A DNA stretch of 64,000 nt from a virus, in IMG/VR virus record IMGVR_UViG_3300022204_000004, positions 12,922 through 76,921 of that record; one strand, given 5' to 3'. The translations under genes and the position numbers were made by a program. Shown one piece after another: positions 12,443-41,126 of this stretch (within the stretch, counting starts at the first letter, position 1; every line of letters starts with the position of its first letter). The notes under the pieces were generated by a model. The model did no database searches, was not told the origin of the DNA, and saw nothing but the letters and a program-made list of their open reading frames with translations.

Positions 12443-12465
12443 TTCTTTAATGATGCAATAGGGAT

Positions 12466-12498
12466 AAAAAGATACACCCCCCTAAAGGGAGGTATATC
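12466..12498 (-). terminator. Intrinsic terminator after DUF932 gene
   Basis: GATACACCCCCCT/AGGGAGGTATATC imperfect stem with T-tract on the minus strand. Confidence 0.65.
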
Positions 12499-12515
12499 CT
12501 ATCCTTATCCTTATA

Positions 12516-13594: not shown

Positions 13595-13810
13595 TTATTT
13601 ATTTAAAGGATTAATATTAAATTGATTTTCTACAAATATCAATGCACCGTTTTCTACGGCTTCATCAATTTTGCAGTCACATGCATTATCTTCTACATTG
13701 AGTTGCCAATCTACCTGATGACTTTCGTCATAAGCAAATACTGCATGTGTTTTCCATACTTTCTTTGCTTCTTCGGGAGTTATTTCGCTCCATGTACTAT
13801 GAAATGCCAT
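13595..13810 (-). CDS. Hypothetical protein
   Basis: ORF in operon. Confidence 0.55.
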   Translation of the reverse strand: MAFHSTWSEITPEEAKKVWKTHAVFAYDESHQVDWQLNVEDNACDCKIDEAVENGALIFVENQFNINPLNK

Positions 13811-15557: not shown

Positions 15558-15592
15558 TTTTCTGCTTTTTAAGGGTTAATAATTAATTTAAT

Positions 15593-22151: not shown

Positions 22152-22190
22152 TTGATTTATATTTAAAGGTTAATAATTATTTATTGTTTA

Positions 22191-26297: not shown

Positions 26298-26372
26298 AAT
26301 TGGATGCGGTTTTTCTTCTGACTTTTTACTTTGTCCAATTTAAAAAGAGGGTCACTTTTGTGGCTCTCTTTT
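26298..26372 (+). ncRNA. 3' UTR stem-loop with antisense loop, followed by terminator
   Basis: Stem AATTGGATG/TGTCCAATT, pyrimidine loop 26307-26331; terminator AAAAGAGGGTCAC/GTGGCTCTCTTTT 26343-26372. Confidence 0.55.
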
Positions 26373-26388
26373 ATTTTATGATTCAACT

Positions 26389-28704
26389 ATGGCAGAAATA
26401 TTAAAAAGGTTTAAGAAAAAAGACGTTTTACTCACTAACCAAGATGTTAGGAGCAAGATTTACAACCCTTATTCCAAGACAAATTATTTTGAATTTGAGA
26501 TACCTGTTATTGATGGATTTGATTCAGCCGTATATTCTCCTTTGGTATATCAGGAAATACCACCTCTTGAAAGGGGAACACTTGCCTATGATGATTTTTG
26601 GGACGAACAGGATAAGCGTTGCATAGAGGGATATGCCCCTTTAATTGATGGCATACAATATCCACGAATAACTGGCCCACATTATTTTTATTTGAACATG
26701 GTTCAGATAATGATGCTGAAACAAGGTCAGAACAAAAAGAAACTTAACTATCCTTACTATCGTGTTTTAGACCATATGATTTTTCTAGAGATAGAGAAAG
26801 CCGAACTGTTGGGCTATGGACTGATAATCGGTAAGGCAAGACGTATGGGATTATCCTATATCGGAGATTGCATGACCATATGGAACTTGTTGTTCCACAT
26901 GAATGCTGAAACAGCTATCGGTGCCGGTAAAGCCGATAAAGCAAAAGACCTTTACAACAAAGTCGTCAAGTCCTTGGAAAATCTGAGAGACGAATACAAG
27001 GTAAGTTACAAAAGCAAACAGACCAATACAGGTCAGGAACTTAAACTTTCTTACAAGATTACAGAAAACAAAGTTCAAAAGGATGCGGGTATTGGCAGTA
27101 AACTTGAAGTAAAAACATTTTTTTCTGACCCTTCAGCTTTTGAAGGTGGTTCTTATCAGTTTTTCATATTTGAGGAAATAGGACTTCAGGACAATCTCAT
27201 AAAATCCTACAAAGCTTCCGAACCATGTTTCATGGAAGGAGCCAAACAATTCGGAGTACCAATGCTTTACGGTACAGGTGGTGAAGTTGATAAAGGTTCT
27301 CGTGATATGAAGATCATATACGAAAACCCTGAAGCCTACAATATGAAAAAGCTGTTCATACCAGCTTATCTTTACTATCCCGGAAACCTAGATGTTAAAG
27401 AAGACAAAGATGACAAGCGTTCCGAAATGGAAAAAATGGACGATGGCGTAAACTTCTTTGACATCAAGACAGGAAGAACCGATCAACTTGCCGCACTTGA
27501 ACATATTTTAAAAAGAAGAAAAAGAGCAAGTACATCAAGAGAAGGATATATCAAAGAGGTTCAATCAAGACCTACCGAAGAAGCTCACTTGTTCCTTAAG
27601 ACTAGTGGAGGTATCTTGGATAGGATAAAACTGAACTCACAGCTACAGAAAATATATGATAAAGAATGTGCCTATGTTCCAAGAAAAGGACGATTGGAAT
27701 GGGCATATTCTCCTGAACTTGAAATGAAGCTCATACGTTGCCAATCCCAAAAGGAACGTGACAAAGTGCATATACTTCACAAAAGCAAAGTTGATTTTAT
27801 TGAAGATGAAGACGGAACTGTATATGAAATTGCACCACCAATCAATAGGGCTGAAATGCCTTATGATGCAGATATAGCCGGAACGGACAGTTATGATGAA
27901 GTCGTTCCCGAAGACACGGGATCTAATGGTGCTACTATGGTGTACCGAGTTTTTAATGGATTGAGCAAAGACTACAATATGCCCGTTGCACTTGTTTATG
28001 AAAGAGGTGATTCTTCCAATGACGATAGTTTTTATGGGAACTCGCTAAAAGTTTGCGTAAGATATAATTGCAAGACCCTTGTAGAATATTCAAAGATTAC
28101 CATTATAAATTATTTTGAAGACTGTGGAGCTTCTAACCATTTGACCTTAAAACCTATATTGAGAAATGAAGCGATTGCCAATAAAGGAAGACAGACCTAC
28201 GGTGTTCACGTTAAGGGAGAGATGAAAGGTATCATTACAAGACTATTGAAACAAGAGGTTTTGAACCATTACGAAAACATATGGCTTGACAAAATCCTTT
28301 TGGACCTTATTGAATACGGTGACGGAAATACGGATATAGCTATGGCTTACGGAATGTGCCTGATTACCAAACTGGATATGTTTGACGAGATAACCGACGA
28401 CATAGAAATATACGACGAAGGAGATTTGTTGATGGATATGGCATATTATTCAACAGATGCCAATGGAAATCTTAAAATAAAAACTTATGGTTCAGACGAT
28501 TTTGACGATGGAATTGAGACCTTTGACCCTCGAAAACACCTCGAAGGAGTTGATAGAGAAAATTATCTTAACTTTATGGCAATGAAGAAGAAAAAAATGG
28601 AGGAACAAAGAAAGCTTACAGAACAAATTCAACTAGAACGAGAAGTAGACCCTTTTAAAAGAGCAGTGCAATTAGAAATAGAAAATAGAAAACGCCATGA
28701 TTAA
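26389..28704 (+). CDS. terL: Terminase large subunit
   Basis: ITGPHYFYLN, Walker A GKARRMGLSY, Walker B FIFEEIG, YGTGG, nuclease GTDSYD; crAss-like. Confidence 0.92.
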   Translation: MAEILKRFKKKDVLLTNQDVRSKIYNPYSKTNYFEFEIPVIDGFDSAVYSPLVYQEIPPLERGTLAYDDFWDEQDKRCIEGYAPLIDGIQYPRITGPHYFYLNMVQIMMLKQGQNKKKLNYPYYRVLDHMIFLEIEKAELLGYGLIIGKARRMGLSYIGDCMTIWNLLFHMNAETAIGAGKADKAKDLYNKVVKSLENLRDEYKVSYKSKQTNTGQELKLSYKITENKVQKDAGIGSKLEVKTFFSDPSAFEGGSYQFFIFEEIGLQDNLIKSYKASEPCFMEGAKQFGVPMLYGTGGEVDKGSRDMKIIYENPEAYNMKKLFIPAYLYYPGNLDVKEDKDDKRSEMEKMDDGVNFFDIKTGRTDQLAALEHILKRRKRASTSREGYIKEVQSRPTEEAHLFLKTSGGILDRIKLNSQLQKIYDKECAYVPRKGRLEWAYSPELEMKLIRCQSQKERDKVHILHKSKVDFIEDEDGTVYEIAPPINRAEMPYDADIAGTDSYDEVVPEDTGSNGATMVYRVFNGLSKDYNMPVALVYERGDSSNDDSFYGNSLKVCVRYNCKTLVEYSKITIINYFEDCGASNHLTLKPILRNEAIANKGRQTYGVHVKGEMKGIITRLLKQEVLNHYENIWLDKILLDLIEYGDGNTDIAMAYGMCLITKLDMFDEITDDIEIYDEGDLLMDMAYYSTDANGNLKIKTYGSDDFDDGIETFDPRKHLEGVDRENYLNFMAMKKKKMEEQRKLTEQIQLEREVDPFKRAVQLEIENRKRHD

Positions 28705-30994
28705 CAATCAATTTGAACTCCCTAATCAAAGGCATCCTGAGTCCAAGTGGACAAAAAAGATGTATTTGGATCATGCCAACAGAATGATTGAATACCTTGG
28801 GAACAAGGATTTGACCACAAGAAATGAAATGATTTCAAAACTGTACAGAATTTACAGCTGTCAGTTGAGTAGCAAAGAAGAAGAAGCCAACAAAACATTG
28901 ACGGAACAGTACGGATATGATTTAGGAGTTGAATATGTTGTTTACCCTTTAGCTGAAATGGTCGTTGACCAATTAATAGGCGAATATCTATCCTTGCCAC
29001 TTAAAAAGAAAACCTATTCAATAAACAAGAAAGCCATTAACGAAAGACTTGATGAAAAGGTCAAATATATAGCTGAAGAAATATTCAGAGCAGAAAACAA
29101 AAAACTTCAGAATGAATTGGGCTTTGAGCCTGAAACAGAAAATCCCGAAATAGATCTGCCTGATGATATTGAATTCTTTTTCAATAAAACCTACAAGACA
29201 TTATCTGAAGAACTTTCAGATGATATTGTAACCCACTTTTTAGATGTTCTAAAAGAAAAACGAAAACTTAAAACCTTATTGAGAGATTTCCTTATAGGGG
29301 AGCAGGCGACAGCTTTACTAGACGAGAAGGACGGACATCCCACTATTAAACGTACCAGGTACGATGAAACATATATCGACCTCAACCCAGATGAAGAAGT
29401 CCAAACGGATATAAATATCTTTGCCTACTTCCCTTTTAAGACAAAGAACGAAATCCTCAATGATTACATTTTAGACAAAGACCAACTCAAAAAGATTGAT
29501 GATATCTTTACAAGAATGCAACAAGGCAAATTATTGGATGAGCCTTTTGCTTTTTCAAATGATGGAGTTGACAGACATGGTTACGCAAACTGTAAAAATG
29601 GTGTTTCCTACAAAGGTTGGTATGAGTCAAATGCGACACACAGACTTCGTGTTCTTGTAATGAAATGGAAATCAAGAAAGGAAATCAGAGCCAAAGTACA
29701 CATTGATAAAGCTGGAAAGGAAGTCTATACATTACTCAAAAAAGACGAAAAACCTAGAAACAGAGATGAAGTAAGAACAGTCTCCATAGAGGTTATTCGA
29801 GAAATTGAAATGTTGGGGCCGGATATAGTTTTAAAATATGGCGAATGCAAAGAGCGATTGAGCTATATCGACAACAACAAAAAAGTAAACTTGCCAGTCA
29901 TATCCTTAAGGGGAAGAAACACAATGTATTCTACAGAGATACGCTCGGTAGTTGCAAAAGTCGCTCCACTTCAGAAAATGGCTTCCGATATCCTTTTTGA
30001 ACTTCGATTAGCCATAAAAGCAAATAACGGTAGGGTATTGGTTTATGATGCTTCACAAATACCAAAACAGTTTATAGATTCTTATGGTCAGGAAAATGCA
30101 ATCAATAGAATGTTGCACCATATCAAAAAGGACAAAATTTTAATATTCAATTCCAAAGACAAAAAATCAAGAGCAACATTCAATCAGTTTACAGCTCTTG
30201 ATTTGACCAATAGAGGTCTCGTTCAAGATTTGATAAATGCTCTTATGCTCATGGAAGAATTGGGCAGAAAGTTTGTAGGCATTACAAAAGAACGTCAAGG
30301 TGAAGTTGGTCAGTACCAAACGGCACAAGGAACCGATAGAGCTGTACTTGCCTCAAATGCACGTACCGAGATATACTTCAATCCATTTGACGAGTTTGTT
30401 CAAGGTCTATTGAACAAAATGTTGATGAAGGCAAAATCTGTTTATAGAACAGGTCAAGTGTTCTCATATGTCTTTGGTGATTTAATGACAAAATTTTTAA
30501 CTATATTCCAAGAGTTCTTTAATGTGGATATAGGTCTTTATTTTGGAGATAGATTCAAAGACCAAAGGGATAAACAAATCATTGACCAAGCTGCGATGCA
30601 AGCTTTGGGAAATGCAACTGACAGAGAACAGATATTGGATCTGATAAATGTTCTTGAAGCCGAACACGCTTCTGAAAGTAAAGCTATCTTGGAAAAAGGA
30701 CTTAAAGCTTTTGAAAAACTTCAGCAAGAAAATGCTAAAGCGGCTCAAGAAAACCAAATGAAAATGGACCAACTTAAAGCCGAAGAAGCCGAAAAAGAAA
30801 GAGAAGTTAAAAGAGAAGGCTTTCAAAAAGACATTACAGTTGCCAAAATATATGCAGACAATAAAACTTTTAATTCTGAAGAAGATAGGGTTTCCAATGA
30901 AGTACAGACAGCGGCCAAGATTGAAAGTGATTTATTGAAAGCAGAAAAAAGTAGTATAGCAAAGCCTTCAACGGCTTCAAAAAACAATGAATAA
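28697..30994 (+). CDS. Portal protein
   Basis: 765 aa after TerL; LIGEYL..P, GITKERQG motifs, C-terminal coiled coil. Confidence 0.85.
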   Translation: MINNQFELPNQRHPESKWTKKMYLDHANRMIEYLGNKDLTTRNEMISKLYRIYSCQLSSKEEEANKTLTEQYGYDLGVEYVVYPLAEMVVDQLIGEYLSLPLKKKTYSINKKAINERLDEKVKYIAEEIFRAENKKLQNELGFEPETENPEIDLPDDIEFFFNKTYKTLSEELSDDIVTHFLDVLKEKRKLKTLLRDFLIGEQATALLDEKDGHPTIKRTRYDETYIDLNPDEEVQTDINIFAYFPFKTKNEILNDYILDKDQLKKIDDIFTRMQQGKLLDEPFAFSNDGVDRHGYANCKNGVSYKGWYESNATHRLRVLVMKWKSRKEIRAKVHIDKAGKEVYTLLKKDEKPRNRDEVRTVSIEVIREIEMLGPDIVLKYGECKERLSYIDNNKKVNLPVISLRGRNTMYSTEIRSVVAKVAPLQKMASDILFELRLAIKANNGRVLVYDASQIPKQFIDSYGQENAINRMLHHIKKDKILIFNSKDKKSRATFNQFTALDLTNRGLVQDLINALMLMEELGRKFVGITKERQGEVGQYQTAQGTDRAVLASNARTEIYFNPFDEFVQGLLNKMLMKAKSVYRTGQVFSYVFGDLMTKFLTIFQEFFNVDIGLYFGDRFKDQRDKQIIDQAAMQALGNATDREQILDLINVLEAEHASESKAILEKGLKAFEKLQQENAKAAQENQMKMDQLKAEEAEKEREVKREGFQKDITVAKIYADNKTFNSEEDRVSNEVQTAAKIESDLLKAEKSSIAKPSTASKNNE

Positions 30995-31002
30995 TTATTT
31001 TA

Positions 31003-31010
31003 TACATTTG
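31003..31010 (+). promoter_or_regulatory. -7 promoter box for scaffold/capsid operon
   Basis: TACATTTG. Confidence 0.6.
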
Positions 31011-31046
31011 TATTAAACATTTTAAAAATCAGAAAAAATTAAAATT

Positions 31047-32045
31047 ATGGCAGACGAAACTAAACAGTATGATCCTTCAAATACAGAAATACCTGTAGAT
31101 TTTTTTGAAAATCAAAAAAGAGAAGAAGAAGATGAATTCATTAACAGTTTTGATGAGAGAACCTACGAAGAAGCAAACTCTCCAAGAATGACGGACGAGG
31201 TTGAAGAGGTCGTAGATCCACAAGACGCAAATGATGAAGAGGACCCAGCTGAACCGTTTAAATTTGACGACACTTTAGCTGAAGCTGAAAAAGCTGAATT
31301 AGCTGAACTTAATGCTAAACTTGGAACCAACTTTGAGGATTTAAAAGAGCTTAAAGAAAAAATCAAACAGACCGATACTAAAGAACAGATATCTGAAATC
31401 GAAGAGGACAGAGATTTTGTTGCTTATTTCCAAAGTGTAATGAAGTACGATGACAAGGATATAGTCATGGAAGATGAGAAATTAAAAGCTCAACAACTAG
31501 GAAAGAATATCAAAGACCCTCGTATTATGGAAGAAATAGAGGAAAAGGTCGAAAGATTGGAACAAAATGAAATGTTGGATTATGCGGCTCAGGCTGTACG
31601 AAACAATGTTCAGAATGCCATTGACAAACGTCAAAGCAAAATCGATGCTTTTGAAAACAGTCAAAAACAAACATTAGAACAAAAAGAAGCTGCCCGAAAA
31701 GAGCAACTTCAAGAAAGTATAAACTCTATCTATAAAGCTGGAAAGTTTTTAAACATCACGCCAAAGAAAGAGGATTTTGTTGAAATCTATAGAGATTTAA
31801 GCAAAGGAAAACTTATTGACCACTTGAATGCCGATCCTGCGAGTGCCGTAGAGGTTGCGCTTTATCTTAAGTACAAAAACGAAATTAGTAAAAACTTAGG
31901 CAAGCCAGGCTTTAAAGCTGGGGTAAAGTCGGCCCTTGAAACCATAGGGATGACAACGACACAACAAACCGGCAAAGGTGTCACGAAAAATGACAGAAGC
32001 GACAATCAGGACGAGCTAAGCTATTTAGATGCGTTTGCAAAATAA
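31047..32045 (+). CDS. Putative scaffolding protein
   Basis: Acidic coiled-coil protein between portal and capsid. Confidence 0.65.
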   Translation: MADETKQYDPSNTEIPVDFFENQKREEEDEFINSFDERTYEEANSPRMTDEVEEVVDPQDANDEEDPAEPFKFDDTLAEAEKAELAELNAKLGTNFEDLKELKEKIKQTDTKEQISEIEEDRDFVAYFQSVMKYDDKDIVMEDEKLKAQQLGKNIKDPRIMEEIEEKVERLEQNEMLDYAAQAVRNNVQNAIDKRQSKIDAFENSQKQTLEQKEAARKEQLQESINSIYKAGKFLNITPKKEDFVEIYRDLSKGKLIDHLNADPASAVEVALYLKYKNEISKNLGKPGFKAGVKSALETIGMTTTQQTGKGVTKNDRSDNQDELSYLDAFAK

Positions 32046-32186
32046 CAACGGGCAAAGCTAGTTGTTCAAACAAAATAAATAGTGACAAAAAGTAGTCAAT
32101 ATGAGGTAAGTATCCAAAGGCAAAGCTATTGGAAATTAGCCATTTTTTAAATTATTATAAACCCTTAAAAAAAACTTAAAAAATGG
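32044..32186 (+). promoter_or_regulatory. Structured capsid leader (tandem hairpins and anti-AUG stem)
   Basis: Two hairpins sharing GGCAAAGCTA (32051-32060, 32119-32128); CCATTTTTTAA 32140-32150 pairs perfectly with 32176-32186. Confidence 0.65.
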
Positions 32187-33865
32187 GAACATTATTGAGA
32201 GGGGTGTCCGAAAGGTTCAACCCGCAAATTCACACAGAAGACAAGTCTCTTACTGTGAATATGGCGAAACATAACGCCATTAAGAACAAAACATTTGATT
32301 TGTTCGCTTCCAAAAACAAGTTCATCTCGTTCTTATACGCGACTGGACGTGTAAACATGGGAGTTCAAGCCGGAAAAGTTATGAAAGCAAGTGGATCTAT
32401 CCACGATAACGCTTATCGTATTGCTTATAAAGGCTCTTTGTTTATTCCATCGTATGCCTTTGGAAAAACATTATTTGCTGACAATGCAGCTGAAGTTCAA
32501 GCTATCACAAACTTGACAGCTCAACCGTTAGCTGTAAACTACGGAACAGGTGTAGCCGCAGCGGCTGACATCATTCACAATGTCTATGTTGCTCTTGGAG
32601 TTAAACATGACCCAACCAACAACGTATTTGGAGACAAATACAACGAGGGTGACGTTATCTGTTTAGGAAACTACGAGGGAACCAACATCATTGTAATGGG
32701 GAAACCTGTTAAGTCGGTTTCAGGTGATCATTATGTTGTTTATGGAAAAGTAAACGGCAAAACAGGACTTTTCGTTGAAGCTCATTTAGCGGCTGACGAA
32801 TTGTTATCTGAAGGTGGTAACAGATTTGGCGAAGGATCTGAAAGAGGTTATCAAAGAGAACGTAGAACAAAATGGAGAATTAACTATTCTTTCATTTCTC
32901 GTGCTACGCTTACGATGACCGGTTCAGCCATGAGTCAAAAAGTTGCCGTTATCTACAATAGCGAAACAAGAGCCACTATGTGGGAATTGGAAGCTGTTAT
33001 GGATTTACGTGAGAAACACGCTATCGACATGGAATTGGGTGCTCGTCATTCAAGAATGTCAATGGATCCAAGTTCTCACTTATGGTATGAAAATTACGGA
33101 ACAAACCTACTTACCCTTGATGGCTTTACTGCTGACTATGGTATCGTAGCACCTGTCATCGGTGATGGATGGCTTCCTCAATTAGAGGATTCTTTGACCG
33201 TAAGCTATGACCCGAATAACGATTTAGATATTCAAATCATAGAATTAATGATTACTATTTTGGCGCAACGTGCTCCTAACGGAAGTACAGGAAACACTTT
33301 TGTCATTCTTGGAGACAAGTTGGCTCACATGAAAGTGGACAAAGCGCTGAAATTATTAATAGGACATTCTTCAGACGCTACTGTAGTTACAAACAACAAC
33401 ACTAATTATGTTGTCAATGTTCGTACAGGTGAGAAAAACAAAGTTGGCTTTACTGTTGATAGATATCACTATCTTGAAAACGAAGTCATCTTTATTGAAG
33501 ATGAATTGTCCAATCATCCTGCTTTTGCCCCTCAAAACGGTGGTATCGTTGGTACAGGTTCAATGTATATCTTAAACGCTTCTATGGTGAACGGTGTTTC
33601 AAACATCGATTTATTGTCACGTAGTGACAGAGCTTTAAGAGCTAAATACATTGACGGTATGCACTCATTAGATCCAAAAAGAAATGCTTCTCCGGTTGCT
33701 TTCTCAGGATTTGACGGTGGTCGATTCGACTTATTAAGCGAAGTTCTTCCTATCATCTATTCAACTGAAAGTTGTGGTAGATTATTGGCAAGTGCTAAGT
33801 TTGCTGGCGGTGCATTATCAGGAGCTCCTGTTGCAAGTGAAATTGCTCCAGTTTGGCATTATTAG
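32183..33865 (+). CDS. Major capsid protein
   Basis: Position after scaffold, 560 aa, EGSERG motif, G.GW.PQ, biased codon usage, terminator after. Confidence 0.8.
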   Translation: MGTLLRGVSERFNPQIHTEDKSLTVNMAKHNAIKNKTFDLFASKNKFISFLYATGRVNMGVQAGKVMKASGSIHDNAYRIAYKGSLFIPSYAFGKTLFADNAAEVQAITNLTAQPLAVNYGTGVAAAADIIHNVYVALGVKHDPTNNVFGDKYNEGDVICLGNYEGTNIIVMGKPVKSVSGDHYVVYGKVNGKTGLFVEAHLAADELLSEGGNRFGEGSERGYQRERRTKWRINYSFISRATLTMTGSAMSQKVAVIYNSETRATMWELEAVMDLREKHAIDMELGARHSRMSMDPSSHLWYENYGTNLLTLDGFTADYGIVAPVIGDGWLPQLEDSLTVSYDPNNDLDIQIIELMITILAQRAPNGSTGNTFVILGDKLAHMKVDKALKLLIGHSSDATVVTNNNTNYVVNVRTGEKNKVGFTVDRYHYLENEVIFIEDELSNHPAFAPQNGGIVGTGSMYILNASMVNGVSNIDLLSRSDRALRAKYIDGMHSLDPKRNASPVAFSGFDGGRFDLLSEVLPIIYSTESCGRLLASAKFAGGALSGAPVASEIAPVWHY

Positions 33866-33885
33866 TTTAGTTAGTTAATTGAGAT

Positions 33886-33921
33886 AAGGGCTGTGAGTTG
33901 AAAGCCATGGCCCTTTCTTTT
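33886..33921 (+). terminator. Terminator after MCP
   Basis: AAGGGCTGTG/CATGGCCCTT followed by T-rich tail. Confidence 0.7.
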
Positions 33922-33939
33922 AAAAAATCAGAAACACAA

Positions 33940-34743
33940 ATGGAAGTAGCACAAAAACAAAAAGTATGGCATAATGTCGAAATTACGGGCAGATGGCTTT
34001 TGACTTATGAAATCAAAAACAATCAAGGTCCAATGGCTTTCGGTGGAAAGCATTTAAGTCCTTACCCAAACCCTTACACGCAACAAAAGACGTGGAGAAA
34101 ATCTGTAAATGGTACAGCCTTAAACGGACTGATGATGGACAGACTTTCTAAAATTTATTTACCTGACGAATATCCACAGGACAAACTAGATGTTAATTGG
34201 TTAATCATGCACCCAGAGGTTAAAGTCGAGGGAGTAAAAGATTTAGATCCAAAGATTGTTTCCGCTAAAACCGGAATGCAAATCACATTGAAATGTTTGG
34301 ATTATGTCGTTATGCAGGATATTGAAGACGAAGATTTTATTGATAGAGTTATTGGAAGGCTTACACTTGATGGTGGAACCCAAGCAATAGGTCTTGAAAA
34401 ACTAAGATATGTATTGGCCGCTCTTGGACAAAGTTATTACGATAACAGATATGAGGGTGCTGCCGAAAAGAAAATGCTCCGTTCAAAATTAAAAACTTGG
34501 ACACGTAAATCTATTGAGAACGCTAGATTGGTACAAGAAGCCATAGACTCAATGGACGAATCGCAAGACAATTATTATTTCAAAGAAATGTTGCGTTTCA
34601 AGGTATTGGTGCCTTCAAATGGTGTTTACAAATTTCAGAACACTCCAATCGGAGCGAATGAATCAGCTGTAAATGCTTTCTTTTCAAATCACCCTGATAC
34701 CAAAGCCGCAGCAATGGAAGCCCTAATGAAACTGTTAAAATAA
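33940..34743 (+). CDS. Post-capsid protein (crAss-like gene order)
   Basis: ATG 33940 preceded by AAAAATCAGAA; ORF track start 33898 lies inside the terminator. Confidence 0.65.
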   Translation: MEVAQKQKVWHNVEITGRWLLTYEIKNNQGPMAFGGKHLSPYPNPYTQQKTWRKSVNGTALNGLMMDRLSKIYLPDEYPQDKLDVNWLIMHPEVKVEGVKDLDPKIVSAKTGMQITLKCLDYVVMQDIEDEDFIDRVIGRLTLDGGTQAIGLEKLRYVLAALGQSYYDNRYEGAAEKKMLRSKLKTWTRKSIENARLVQEAIDSMDESQDNYYFKEMLRFKVLVPSNGVYKFQNTPIGANESAVNAFFSNHPDTKAAAMEALMKLLK

Positions 34744-40673: not shown

Positions 40674-41126
40674 ATGAGTAAGAGTAATTCTTTTGAAACA
40701 GATTTGTTAGAATTGATTTTTAACAATGTAGCAATCACAAATGTAGGAGACGCGGGAGGTATATTGCCTTCAGTAGCTCCGGGCGATCTTTACATTCGTC
40801 TTTATACCGATGCAGTAGTTGTTGACGATGCAACCATTGGAACTGAAGCGGCCTATACAGGTTATTCTGCGGGTGGAATCGCTGTTGCACGTAGTGGTGC
40901 AGGTTGGACTATCGCGGGTAACAACGCATCAAATGCTGCTGCAATCACTTTCGGTGCTTGTTCAGCTGGTTCTGAAAACATTCGTTATTTTGCTATTTGG
41001 AAAGATGGTGCCACGGGAACAGATTCTCACAGACTTTATTGGGGTCAGTTGACTTCTGATTTGGCTGTTAGCTCTGGTATCACTCCTGAATTTGCCATCG
41101 GAGCATTGGACGTTAACGAAGACTAA
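40674..41126 (+). CDS. Small virion fibre/decoration-type protein
   Basis: MSKSNSFETDLL..., ITFG, FAIW, PEFAIGAL motifs; own promoter box and downstream hairpin. Confidence 0.65.
   Translation: MSKSNSFETDLLELIFNNVAITNVGDAGGILPSVAPGDLYIRLYTDAVVVDDATIGTEAAYTGYSAGGIAVARSGAGWTIAGNNASNAAAITFGACSAGSENIRYFAIWKDGATGTDSHRLYWGQLTSDLAVSSGITPEFAIGALDVNED

What the first reader, a model, noticed from the sequence alone, without database searches (positions are those of the whole stretch)
32044..32186. Major capsid leader with twin identical-loop hairpins and a perfect anti-AUG stem
Seen: AACAAC-G-GGCAAAGCTA-GTTGTT (32044-32066) and TCCAA-A-GGCAAAGCTA-TTGGA (32113-32133) have different stems but the same 10-nt apical sequence, with a small TGAC/GTCA hairpin between them. 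CCATTTTTTAA (32140-32150) pairs perfectly with TTAAAAAATGG (32176-32186), covering the capsid start codon. Inference: a protein-responsive translational switch (scaffold or capsid feedback, by analogy with P22 scaffold autoregulation), possibly an uncatalogued cis-regulatory RNA.
Basis: partly seen in the sequence, partly recalled or inferred. Interest (0 to 1): 0.7.

Follow-up and report, generated by a model that had tools for sequence, protein, structure and literature searches.

The report
Structured RNA before crAss-like capsid gene
The 137-base gap between the scaffold-like gene and the major capsid gene of this environmental crAss-like phage folds into a conserved RNA that no catalogue lists: two hairpins with the same tip, plus a helix that covers the capsid start site, so it probably tunes how much capsid protein is made.

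Summary

- **Conservation.** The element is present in all 38 distinct relatives whose capsid protein is at least 42% identical.
- **Stems co-vary.** On an unbiased alignment, 95% of cells are paired and 14 of 22 pairs show double changes. No shuffle out of 500 matched this.
- **Tips are kept.** The tips follow the pattern A-GNC-AAN-GNY-A.
- **Sense-strand RNA.** There are 23 G·U pairs against 3 A·C.
- **Specific to this gap.** A hairpin model finds exactly two copies per complete genome, both in this gap.
- **Third helix (P3).** It pairs a U-rich tract after hairpin 2 with the A-rich start region. It recurs with about 15 different complementary arm sequences. Its register shifts between clades, and it covers the AUG only in the window's own clade.
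- **Not conserved.** The small TGAC/GTCA hairpin is not kept in relatives.
- **Co-transcription.** The gap has no host-type promoter box, while the upstream gene always has one. The gap is therefore probably intercistronic mRNA.
- **Not catalogued.** Rfam has no match. phi14:2 and crAss001 have only 31-34 nt at this junction.

The function is inferred, not shown. The best guess is a translational operator for capsid synthesis, about 45% likely. The main rival is an mRNA processing or stability element.

The parts
31003..31010 (+). Candidate host-type (Bacteroidota) -7 promoter box TACATTTG upstream of the scaffold-like gene. It is the likely start of the transcript that carries the element.
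   Evidence: One search lists it. One search finds a TAnnTTTG box at the same place in all 11 relatives checked. One search shows the same box before phi14:2 g092 and g093 but not before its MCP gene g091.
31047..32045 (+). Upstream gene, 332 aa, scaffold-like. Its stop codon is the first base triplet of HP1.
   Evidence: Acidic, charged sequence. The AF2 model is all-alpha with a 55-residue helix, pLDDT 70. It lies between portal and MCP. No family match.
32044..32066 (+). HP1: a 6-bp outer stem, a 1x1 G/A mismatch, a 3-bp GGC/GCU stem and an AAA triloop. It abuts the stop codon.
   Evidence: Covariation (helix 1: 6 of 9 pairs with double changes). R1 scores 31.2 bits. In relatives with a recognisable HP1 tip, that tip starts 2-12 nt after the stop.
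32067..32104 (+). Variable A-rich spacer. It includes the TGAC/GTCA mini-hairpin (32083-32098), which is not conserved.
   Evidence: 45% of cells paired, no better than shuffles.
32105..32141 (+). HP2 with its extension: basal GG (32105-06) pairs with CC (32140-41). The core is 32113-32133, with the same tip A-GGC-AAA-GCU-A.
   Evidence: In one search, helix 3 has 8 of 11 pairs with double changes, and helix 2 (GG/CC) is invariant. R1 scores 30.3 bits. The tip lies 61-73 nt before the start codon in relatives.
32140..32150 (+). P3 5' arm, CCAUUUUUUAA. Its CC is shared with the base of HP2.
   Evidence: Equivalent arms in relatives are listed.
32151..32175 (+). P3 loop, 25 nt and A/U-rich. It carries the cassette ATTATTATAAACCCTTAAAA, which also precedes other genes of this phage at a fixed distance.
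   Evidence: Related A/T-rich junctions precede the MCP gene of distant relatives, phi14:2 and crAss001.
32176..32186 (+). P3 3' arm, UUAAAAAAUGG. It covers the MCP start codon (32183-85) and the first G of codon 2.
32183..33865 (+). Major capsid protein gene, 560 aa.
   Evidence: PF23898 Crass_capsid hits 8 of 12 homologues (best E 1.1e-14) but not the window's own protein. The nearest ESM Atlas clusters carry Crass_capsid or SU10_MCP. The N-terminus is conserved across clades. Synteny fits.

Best explanation
The whole 137-nt gap is a cis-acting, sense-strand structured RNA. It sits in the intercistronic region of a late mRNA that carries the scaffold-like gene and the MCP gene.

**Conserved parts.**
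- HP1 abuts the upstream stop codon.
- HP2 lies about 64 nt before the MCP start.
- Both hairpins are capped by the tip A-GNC-AAN-GN'Y-A on variable stems.
- P3 is an A·U-rich helix. It pairs the U-rich tract just after HP2 with the A-rich ribosome landing region of the MCP gene.

**Proposed mechanism (inferred).**
- Bacteroidota ribosomes start on open, A-rich leaders without a Shine-Dalgarno sequence. P3 must therefore melt before each initiation, and so it sets or gates MCP translation.
- The two tips are operator sites for one trans-acting factor, most simply a dimeric or multimeric phage protein such as scaffold or MCP. The factor would shift the balance between the open and P3-closed states.
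- In several clades the 3' strand of the HP2 base and the P3 5' arm overlap by 4-9 nt, so HP2 and P3 are alternative folds there.
- Ribosomes terminating on the upstream gene must unwind HP1. This could link MCP output to translation of the upstream gene.

**Shown:** conserved structure, strand, specificity to this gap, position.
**Inferred:** co-transcription, the translational effect, the existence and identity of the factor.

I put about 0.85 on 'functional conserved cis-RNA' and about 0.45 on this mechanism.
For: **Structure.**
- On the MAFFT alignment of 9 close genomes, 95.4% of cells pair and 14 of 22 pairs show double changes. No shuffle out of 500 matched this, and slid controls gave 18-44%.
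- RNAalifold finds HP1, HP2 and the GG/CC base on its own. It also finds both tips and the HP2 base in the distant clades.

**Strand.** 23 G·U against 3 A·C pairs.

**Specificity.**
- Model R1 finds only the two hairpins in the window.
- It finds two each in the near-complete genomes G000 and G001.
- In IMG/VR, only MCP-relative contigs have stems around a twin 10-mer.

**Tips.**
- Tip density is 11.5 per kb in the 38 leaders against 0.6 and 0.3 per kb in the flanks. Positions are fixed relative to the stop codon and the AUG.
- Both tips of a genome carry the same variant, for example GACAAAGUC twice, GGCAAGGCU twice, GGCGAGUAC twice and GGCAGGCUG twice.

**P3.**
- Single-sequence folds that include +12 nt form it in most leaders.
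- 37 of 38 leaders give an unbroken helix of 6-13 bp, and 33 of them one of at least 8 bp, with about 15 different arm sequences. In 36 of the 38 the 3' arm ends between -13 and +5 of the AUG.
- Cognate arms pair better than arms from other clades, -9.65 against -7.40 kcal/mol. The derangement test gives about 0.001.
- Opening the MCP start costs 7.0 kcal/mol, rank 12 of 72 genes, against a median of 4.4.

**Co-transcription.**
- A TAnnTTTG box precedes the scaffold-like gene in the window and in all 11 relatives checked.
- Only 3 of 38 leaders have such a box, at varying positions.
- In phi14:2 the promoter motifs lie before the gp092 and gp093 homologues, and the MCP transcript is the most abundant (bioRxiv 10.1101/2020.03.07.982082). 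I confirmed the boxes on the phi14:2 sequence.
Against: - No expression data cover the leader. The one RNA run gave only a 255-nt contig inside the MCP gene.
- P3 could not be shown by column-wise covariation. RNAalifold predicts no pairs on the P3-region alignment because the register shifts in low-complexity sequence. U-runs pair with A-runs trivially.
- P3 is weak or absent in L010, L046 and L064.
- P3 covers the AUG only in the window's clade.
- The overlap between HP2 and P3 is only 2 nt in the window's clade and absent in the L042 clade. The 'switch' is therefore not universal.
- The MCP start is only moderately occluded compared with other genes.
- A gene that must be expressed very strongly would not obviously benefit from an occluded start.
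- The P3 loop carries a cassette found before other genes. It could be an unrecognised promoter, in which case the main MCP mRNA would lack the hairpins.
- No RNA-binding protein was identified.
Confidence: 0.45

Rival explanations
1. The element controls mRNA processing and stability within the operon. The bicistronic transcript is cut in the variable spacer. HP1 then protects the 3' end of the scaffold message, and HP2 with P3 protects the 5' end of the MCP message. This gives MCP mRNA a longer life and a higher level. The shared tip would be the recognition site of one RNase or protective protein.
For: - HP1 sits directly after the stop codon, and HP2 with P3 sits directly before the start. 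That is the expected layout for end-protecting hairpins.
- The spacer between them is unconserved and A-rich.
- In phi14:2 the MCP transcript is the most abundant, although the recognisable promoters lie upstream of the preceding genes. Post-transcriptional enrichment of MCP mRNA therefore seems to occur in crAss-like phages.
- P3 hides U- and A-runs that would otherwise be single-stranded targets for nucleases.
Against: - phi14:2 and crAss001 manage with 31-34-nt junctions and no hairpins.
- Simple protective hairpins do not need a sequence-specific tip that is kept over 42-83% MCP identity and evolves in concert.
- The constant placement of P3 over the initiation region fits translation better.
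- No RNA-end data exist for this clade.
Confidence: 0.25
2. The element is a leaky or regulated intrinsic terminator (attenuator). HP2 plus the following U5-7 run would stop transcription between the scaffold-like gene and the MCP gene. A factor bound to the tips would permit read-through, or MCP would use a separate promoter in the P3 loop, with P3 silencing translation from read-through RNA.
For: - In most clades an extended HP2 with G-C pairs at its base is followed at once by (A)U5-7.
- The genome uses classical hairpin-plus-U terminators elsewhere (upstream text of the ORFs at 26389 and 12218).
- The P3 loop carries a cassette found 9-12 nt before other start codons.
Against: - In the L042, L074, L079, L081, L082 and L091 clade, HP2 is followed by AACAAUG and only four U's, yet P3 is kept.
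- The U-run is already explained, because it must pair with an A-rich start region.
- HP1 has no U-run.
- The terminator scan does not call HP2.
- There is no host-type promoter box downstream.
- A terminator before the gene needed in the highest amount is counter-intuitive.
- G·U pairs and arm co-variation in P3 show that RNAs spanning both arms matter.
Confidence: 0.1
3. The element acts at the DNA level. Examples would be hairpin promoters like those of N4 virion RNA polymerase, operators for a DNA-binding regulator, or a single-strand initiation or origin signal.
For: - The 3-nt loops on short stems resemble N4 early promoter hairpins (from my own knowledge), and crAss-like phages carry a virion RNA polymerase.
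- On the minus strand the tip reads TAGCTTTG, which fits TAnnTTTG.
Against: - G·U outnumbers A·C by 23 to 3, so the fold exists only on the sense strand.
- Variable arms with a conserved centre are the opposite of a dimer operator.
- The minus-strand box is lost in relatives that carry the GACAAAGUC or GGCGAGUAC tips.
- There are only two copies per genome, before a late gene.
- phi14:2 early transcripts share no upstream motif.
Confidence: 0.05
4. The element has no function. The hairpins would be kept by quasi-palindrome correction or gene conversion, and the A/T-rich complementarity would be chance.
For: - One perfect 11-bp inverted repeat per window is near chance level.
- Template switching can create apparent compensatory changes (from my own knowledge).
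Against: - The architecture, the positions and the tip consensus are kept across lineages with only 42-49% MCP identity, while stem sequences turn over completely.
- The gap length is held at about 105-140 nt in most leaders.
Confidence: 0.03

Closest known systems
Coat-protein translational operators of RNA phages (MS2/R17, Qbeta, PP7)
   Same: These are small hairpins with variable stems, a sequence-specific loop and an unpaired purine. A structural-protein dimer binds them to shut off translation of a neighbouring gene. Qbeta uses a 3-nt loop.
   Different: - Those operators are single hairpins that contain the regulated start codon. Here two copies lie 64 and 132 nt upstream, and a separate A·U helix occludes the start.
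- The phage here has dsDNA and a host without Shine-Dalgarno pairing.
- Binding is untested.
P22 scaffolding-protein autoregulation and T4 translational repressors (RegA, gp32, gp43)
   Same: Phage morphogenetic or replication proteins feed back on mRNA after transcription. The present element lies between scaffold-like and capsid genes.
   Different: - P22 regulates the scaffold gene itself, and to my knowledge no RNA operator has been defined for it.
- The T4 operators are an unstructured AU-rich site, a pseudoknot or a single hairpin at the start site.
- Nothing here resembles them in sequence or fold.
Lambda/P22 nut boxB and HK022 put antitermination RNAs
   Same: In boxB, hairpins with the same loop recur at two sites in a genome and are recognised by one protein. 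In put, two stem-loops act in cis on RNA polymerase.
   Different: - boxB has a GNRA-like pentaloop next to boxA, and the two sites are in different operons.
- The put stem-loops are adjacent and follow a promoter.
- Here the loops are AAN triloops with flanking unpaired A's, 45 nt apart, between two cistrons.
Intercistronic stabilising hairpins and RNase III sites (T7 R sites; puf, pap and malEFG operons)
   Same: These are hairpins between cistrons of one transcript that set different mRNA levels. In T7 they flank the capsid gene message.
   Different: Those need no conserved loop sequence and are not coupled to a helix over the start region. Processing is untested here.
Candidate structured RNAs predicted from IMG/VR (PMC10690425)
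   Same: That survey reports over ten thousand phage motifs from the same kind of data, including five found typically upstream of a major capsid protein family.
   Different: Its lists are not held here, so I cannot tell whether this element is among them. None of them is in Rfam 15 in a form that matches here.

Membership tests
Any Rfam 15 family | Covariance-model match at or near the gathering score | tested here: not met
   In one search, cmscan of 30000-34500 at E up to 10 gave four chance-level hits. None lies in 32044-32186.
Intrinsic (Rho-independent) terminator | G+C-rich hairpin followed immediately by a U-tract, conserved as such | tested here: inconclusive
   - HP1 has no U-tract.
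- HP2 is followed by U5-7 in most clades, but not in the L042 clade.
- The terminator scan does not call it.
RNA-phage coat-protein operator (MS2, Qbeta, PP7 type) | A single hairpin that contains the start codon of the repressed gene | tested here: not met
   The hairpin tips lie 61-73 and 103-132 nt before the AUG. The AUG lies in a separate helix.
RNA-phage coat-protein operator (MS2, Qbeta, PP7 type) | Specific binding by the structural protein | not testable with these tools
   This needs EMSA or filter binding. Complex prediction takes no RNA.
Lambda-type nut site | boxA plus a boxB hairpin with a GNRA-like pentaloop | tested here: not met
   The loops are AAN triloops closed by C-G. No boxA-like conserved block lies next to them.
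N4-type hairpin promoter for virion RNA polymerase | DNA hairpins with 3-nt loops upstream of early genes, several per genome | tested here: not met
   - There are two copies only, before a late structural gene.
- The fold is specific to the sense strand, with G·U pairs.
- phi14:2 early transcripts share no motif.
Bacteroidota sigma-A promoter | TAnnTTTG -7 box on the coding strand at a conserved position | tested here: not met
   The window's leader has no such box on the + strand. Only 3 of 38 leaders have one, at varying positions. Every scaffold-gene upstream region checked has one.
Conserved structured cis-regulatory RNA (generic) | Compensatory base changes beyond controls, strand specificity, fixed position relative to a gene | tested here: met

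The most novel reading that the evidence does not exclude
The twin tips are operators for the phage's own scaffold-like protein or MCP. Free protein binds HP1 and HP2 together and shifts the HP2/P3 balance, which closes the A-rich start region. Ribosomes terminating on the scaffold gene strip HP1 and relieve the block. This would be an assembly-coupled feedback that sets the scaffold-to-capsid ratio from one transcript. It would be the first defined translational operator in a Crassvirales phage and in a host without Shine-Dalgarno initiation.
Probability: 0.2. Interest if true: 0.75.

Novelty: new member of a known kind. Interest (0 to 1): 0.6.

Why it matters
- **Little is known about late-gene control in these phages.** Crassvirales are among the most abundant phages known, yet nothing is known about how they control late-gene dosage after transcription.
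- **The hosts start translation differently.** Bacteroidota do not use Shine-Dalgarno pairing, so regulatory RNAs that act on initiation there are almost unexplored.
- **The element is compact and testable.** It is strongly supported by covariation and has a defined 11-nt tip, which gives a concrete handle. The same tip could be used to fish for its binding partner.
- **Natural controls exist.** The relatives phi14:2 and crAss001 lack the element.
- **If it only stabilises mRNA, it is ordinary.** It would still be useful for annotation and as an expression part.

Tried and rejected
- **RNA evidence.** The only run found (X1, sediment metatranscriptome) held 7% of the sampled words. When laid, it gave one 255-nt contig inside the MCP gene and nothing on the leader. 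It supports no conclusion.
- **P3 by alignment.** RNAalifold predicted no pairs on MAFFT alignments of the P3 region, because register shifts in the T and A runs misalign the arms. I used per-sequence helices and a cognate versus non-cognate test instead.
- **MCP identity.**
  - Pfam, PHROGs and PDB sequence searches with the window's own protein gave nothing.
  - blastn and tblastn against the phage collection gave no match.
  - hhalign of the MCP and scaffold-like alignments (A1, A3) against phi14:2 g091 and g092 gave no similarity.
  - The AF2 model of the MCP was poor, pLDDT 46, so I made no fold search.
  - Identity rests on PF23898 hits to 8 of 12 homologues, the Atlas clusters and synteny.
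- **Trans factor.** Ten neighbouring proteins had no RNA-binding domain in Pfam.
- **Minus-strand promoter reading of the tip (TAGCTTTG).** Rejected, because the box is lost in relatives with other tips.
- **Sigma-70-like site TTGGAA-18-TATTAT at 32129-32158.** The spacing and hexamers are not conserved in relatives, so I did not pursue it.
- **Twin 10-mer elsewhere in IMG/VR.** 34 of 40 loci are coding repeats without stems, so they are unrelated.
- **Published catalogue.** The supplement of PMC10690425 is not held.
- **Earlier scan notes by sequence.** Nothing was found.

Full report
**Observation.**
- HP1 is at 32044-32066 and begins inside the TAA stop of ORF 31047-32045.
- HP2 is at 32113-32133.
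- Both hairpins carry GGCAAAGCTA, which occurs nowhere else in the 64 kb.
- CCATTTTTTAA (32140-50) is the exact complement of TTAAAAAATGG (32176-86), which spans the ATG at 32183.
- Folding shows that each tip is itself a small hairpin (GGC/GCU, AAA triloop). A 1x1 purine mismatch separates it from the outer stem.

**Context.**
- The record is a 76.9-kb virus genome, 97% complete, and crAss-like. It has a portal (phrog_6547) and a CrAss_Ring_2 protein.
- The gene order is terminase-sized ORF, portal, a 332-aa protein, a 560-aa protein, as in phi14:2 and crAss001.
- The 560-aa protein is the MCP. PF23898 Crass_capsid matches 8 of its 12 homologues (best E 1.1e-14), and the Atlas neighbours agree. 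Its own sequence matched nothing directly.
- The upstream protein is acidic and all-alpha with very long helices. It is scaffold-like by character and position, not by homology.

**Conservation.**
- Scans of IMG/VR and JGI metagenomes with the MCP gave 38 distinct leaders from phages with 42-83% MCP identity.
- The gap is 105-142 nt in 35 of the 38 leaders (77-95 nt in L036, L084 and L087). Where a tip is recognisable, the first hairpin starts within about 12 nt of the stop codon and the second tip lies 61-73 nt before the start.
- On a plain MAFFT alignment of the nine closest genomes, the HP1/HP2 structure has 95.4% of cells paired and 14 of 22 pairs with changes on both sides. No shuffle out of 500 did as well, and slid controls gave 18-44%.
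- RNAalifold finds the same helices unaided. In the distant clades it finds both tips and a longer HP2 base.
- G·U pairs outnumber A·C by 23 to 3. The fold therefore belongs to the sense strand, that is, to RNA.
- The small TGAC/GTCA hairpin is not conserved.

**The tip.**
- Across clades the consensus is A-G-N-C-A-A-N-G-N'-Y-A, with N and N' complementary.
- Its density is 11.5 per kb in the leaders, against 0.6 and 0.3 per kb in the flanking DNA.
- In the nearer clades the two tips of one genome carry the same variant while genomes differ. Examples are GGCAAAGCU, GACAAAGUC, GGCAAGGCU, GGCGAGUAC and GGCAGGCUG, each present twice.
- This concerted change points to one shared partner, or to conversion between the copies.
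- In the farther clades the two tips share only the consensus.

**Specificity.**
- A covariance model of the single hairpin scores 31 and 30 bits on the two copies. The next best hit in the window scores 13 bits.
- It finds two hits each in the near-complete genomes G000 and G001 and one in G004, all in the scaffold-MCP gap.
- An IMG/VR scan for two copies of the 10-mer 45-75 nt apart gave 40 loci. Only the six known relatives have stems. The rest are coding repeats.
- Rfam has nothing here.
- In phi14:2, crAss001 and relatives with 23-28% MCP identity the junction is 20-60 nt, with no hairpins. The hairpins are therefore a clade-specific addition of about 100 nt.

**The third helix (P3).**
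- On its own, the 11-bp stem in the window is near chance level.
- Folds of the leaders that include 12 nt of the gene form an equivalent helix in most relatives.
- A search for unbroken helices finds one of 6-13 bp in 37 of 38 leaders (8 bp or more in 33), with about 15 different arm sequences. Examples are CCAUUUUAAA, GGAUUUUUUA, UUAAAGAUUUUU, AAGGUUUUU, UUAGGGUUUUU and UGUUUUGAG, each matched by its partner.
- In 36 of the 38 leaders the 3' arm ends between -13 and +5 of the AUG, that is, within a 30S footprint.
- Cognate arms pair better than arms taken from other clades, -9.65 against -7.40 kcal/mol. The derangement test gives about 0.001.
- Three caveats apply. The register shifts, so column-wise methods see nothing. 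The helix is weak in L010, L046 and L064. U-runs and A-runs pair trivially.
- In several clades the P3 5' arm overlaps the 3' strand of the HP2 base by 4-9 nt, so the two folds exclude each other. In the window's clade the overlap is only the CC at 32140-41.

**Is the gap transcribed with the upstream gene?**
- Every scaffold-like gene checked has a Bacteroidota -7 box, TAnnTTTG, 25-38 nt before its start. In the window it lies at 31003-31010.
- Only 3 of 38 MCP leaders have such a box, at varying positions.
- In phi14:2 the middle and late genes depend on the host polymerase. Promoter motifs lie before the gp092 and gp093 homologues, and the MCP RNA is the most abundant (bioRxiv 10.1101/2020.03.07.982082). 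The phi14:2 sequence shows the boxes before g092 and g093 but not before g091.
- Co-transcription is therefore likely, but it is inferred.
- One complication remains. The P3 loop carries an A/T-rich cassette that ends 9-12 nt before the ATG of at least four other genes. It could be an unrecognised promoter or a translation signal.

**Mechanism.**
- I favour a translational operator. P3 occludes the A-rich start region that ribosomes without Shine-Dalgarno pairing need. The opening cost is 7.0 kcal/mol, rank 12 of 72 genes. The two tips would recruit one factor that shifts the balance.
- The placement of HP1 at the stop codon means that terminating ribosomes must unwind it.
- The main rival is processing and differential stability of the two cistrons.
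- A terminator reading of HP2 plus the U-run fails in the L042 clade.
- DNA-level readings conflict with the strand asymmetry.
- None of these can be settled without RNA-end data or reporters. The one RNA run found was uninformative.

**Verdict.** This is a real, conserved, uncatalogued cis-acting RNA that is specific to one clade of environmental crAss-like phages. Earlier notes of this scan on the same genome gave the lead to look for TAnnTTTG boxes. No look-alike was noted on other DNA.

Noticed in passing
window 13602-13619(-), 15567-15584(-), 22161-22178(-), 32153-32170(+), about 41096-41113(+): An A/T-rich cassette AATTATTAAYCC(T)TTAAA ends 9-12 nt before the ATG of five genes on both strands. 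CTT(T)AA lies within 30 nt of 17 of 74 predicted starts, against about 6% expected. It could be an unrecognised promoter or a translation signal for ribosomes that do not use Shine-Dalgarno pairing.
   Followed up: partly
window 31003-31046; L001-L020 upstream of the scaffold-like gene: A conserved TAnnTTTG box is followed by an AAAAATCAGAA(A) leader motif before the scaffold-like gene in the window and in the closer relatives (the box itself in all 11 checked). The same leader motif precedes ORF 24588.
   Followed up: partly
L124 35536-35566 (phi14:2) and L165 13272-13305 (crAss001): In the two cultured relatives the junction between the gene upstream of the MCP gene and the MCP gene is only 31 and 34 nt, A/T-rich and without hairpins. 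They are natural 'element-minus' comparators.
   Followed up: yes
L125-L164 (IMG/VR): The 10-mer GGCAAAGCTA recurs at fixed spacings, often 72 nt, in many unrelated phage contigs as part of coding repeats without flanking stems.
   Followed up: partly
window 32101-32109 and the same spacer in relatives: Tiny ORFs of 1-10 codons (ATG AGG TAA in the window) sit in the HP1-HP2 spacer of all close relatives. Their positions do not align, so they are probably chance in A/T-rich sequence.
   Followed up: no
window 26300-26388 and 12443-12515: Classical G+C-rich hairpin plus U-tract terminators are visible upstream of ORF 26389 and ORF 12218. The host polymerase is therefore expected to read ordinary terminators in this genome.
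   Followed up: no
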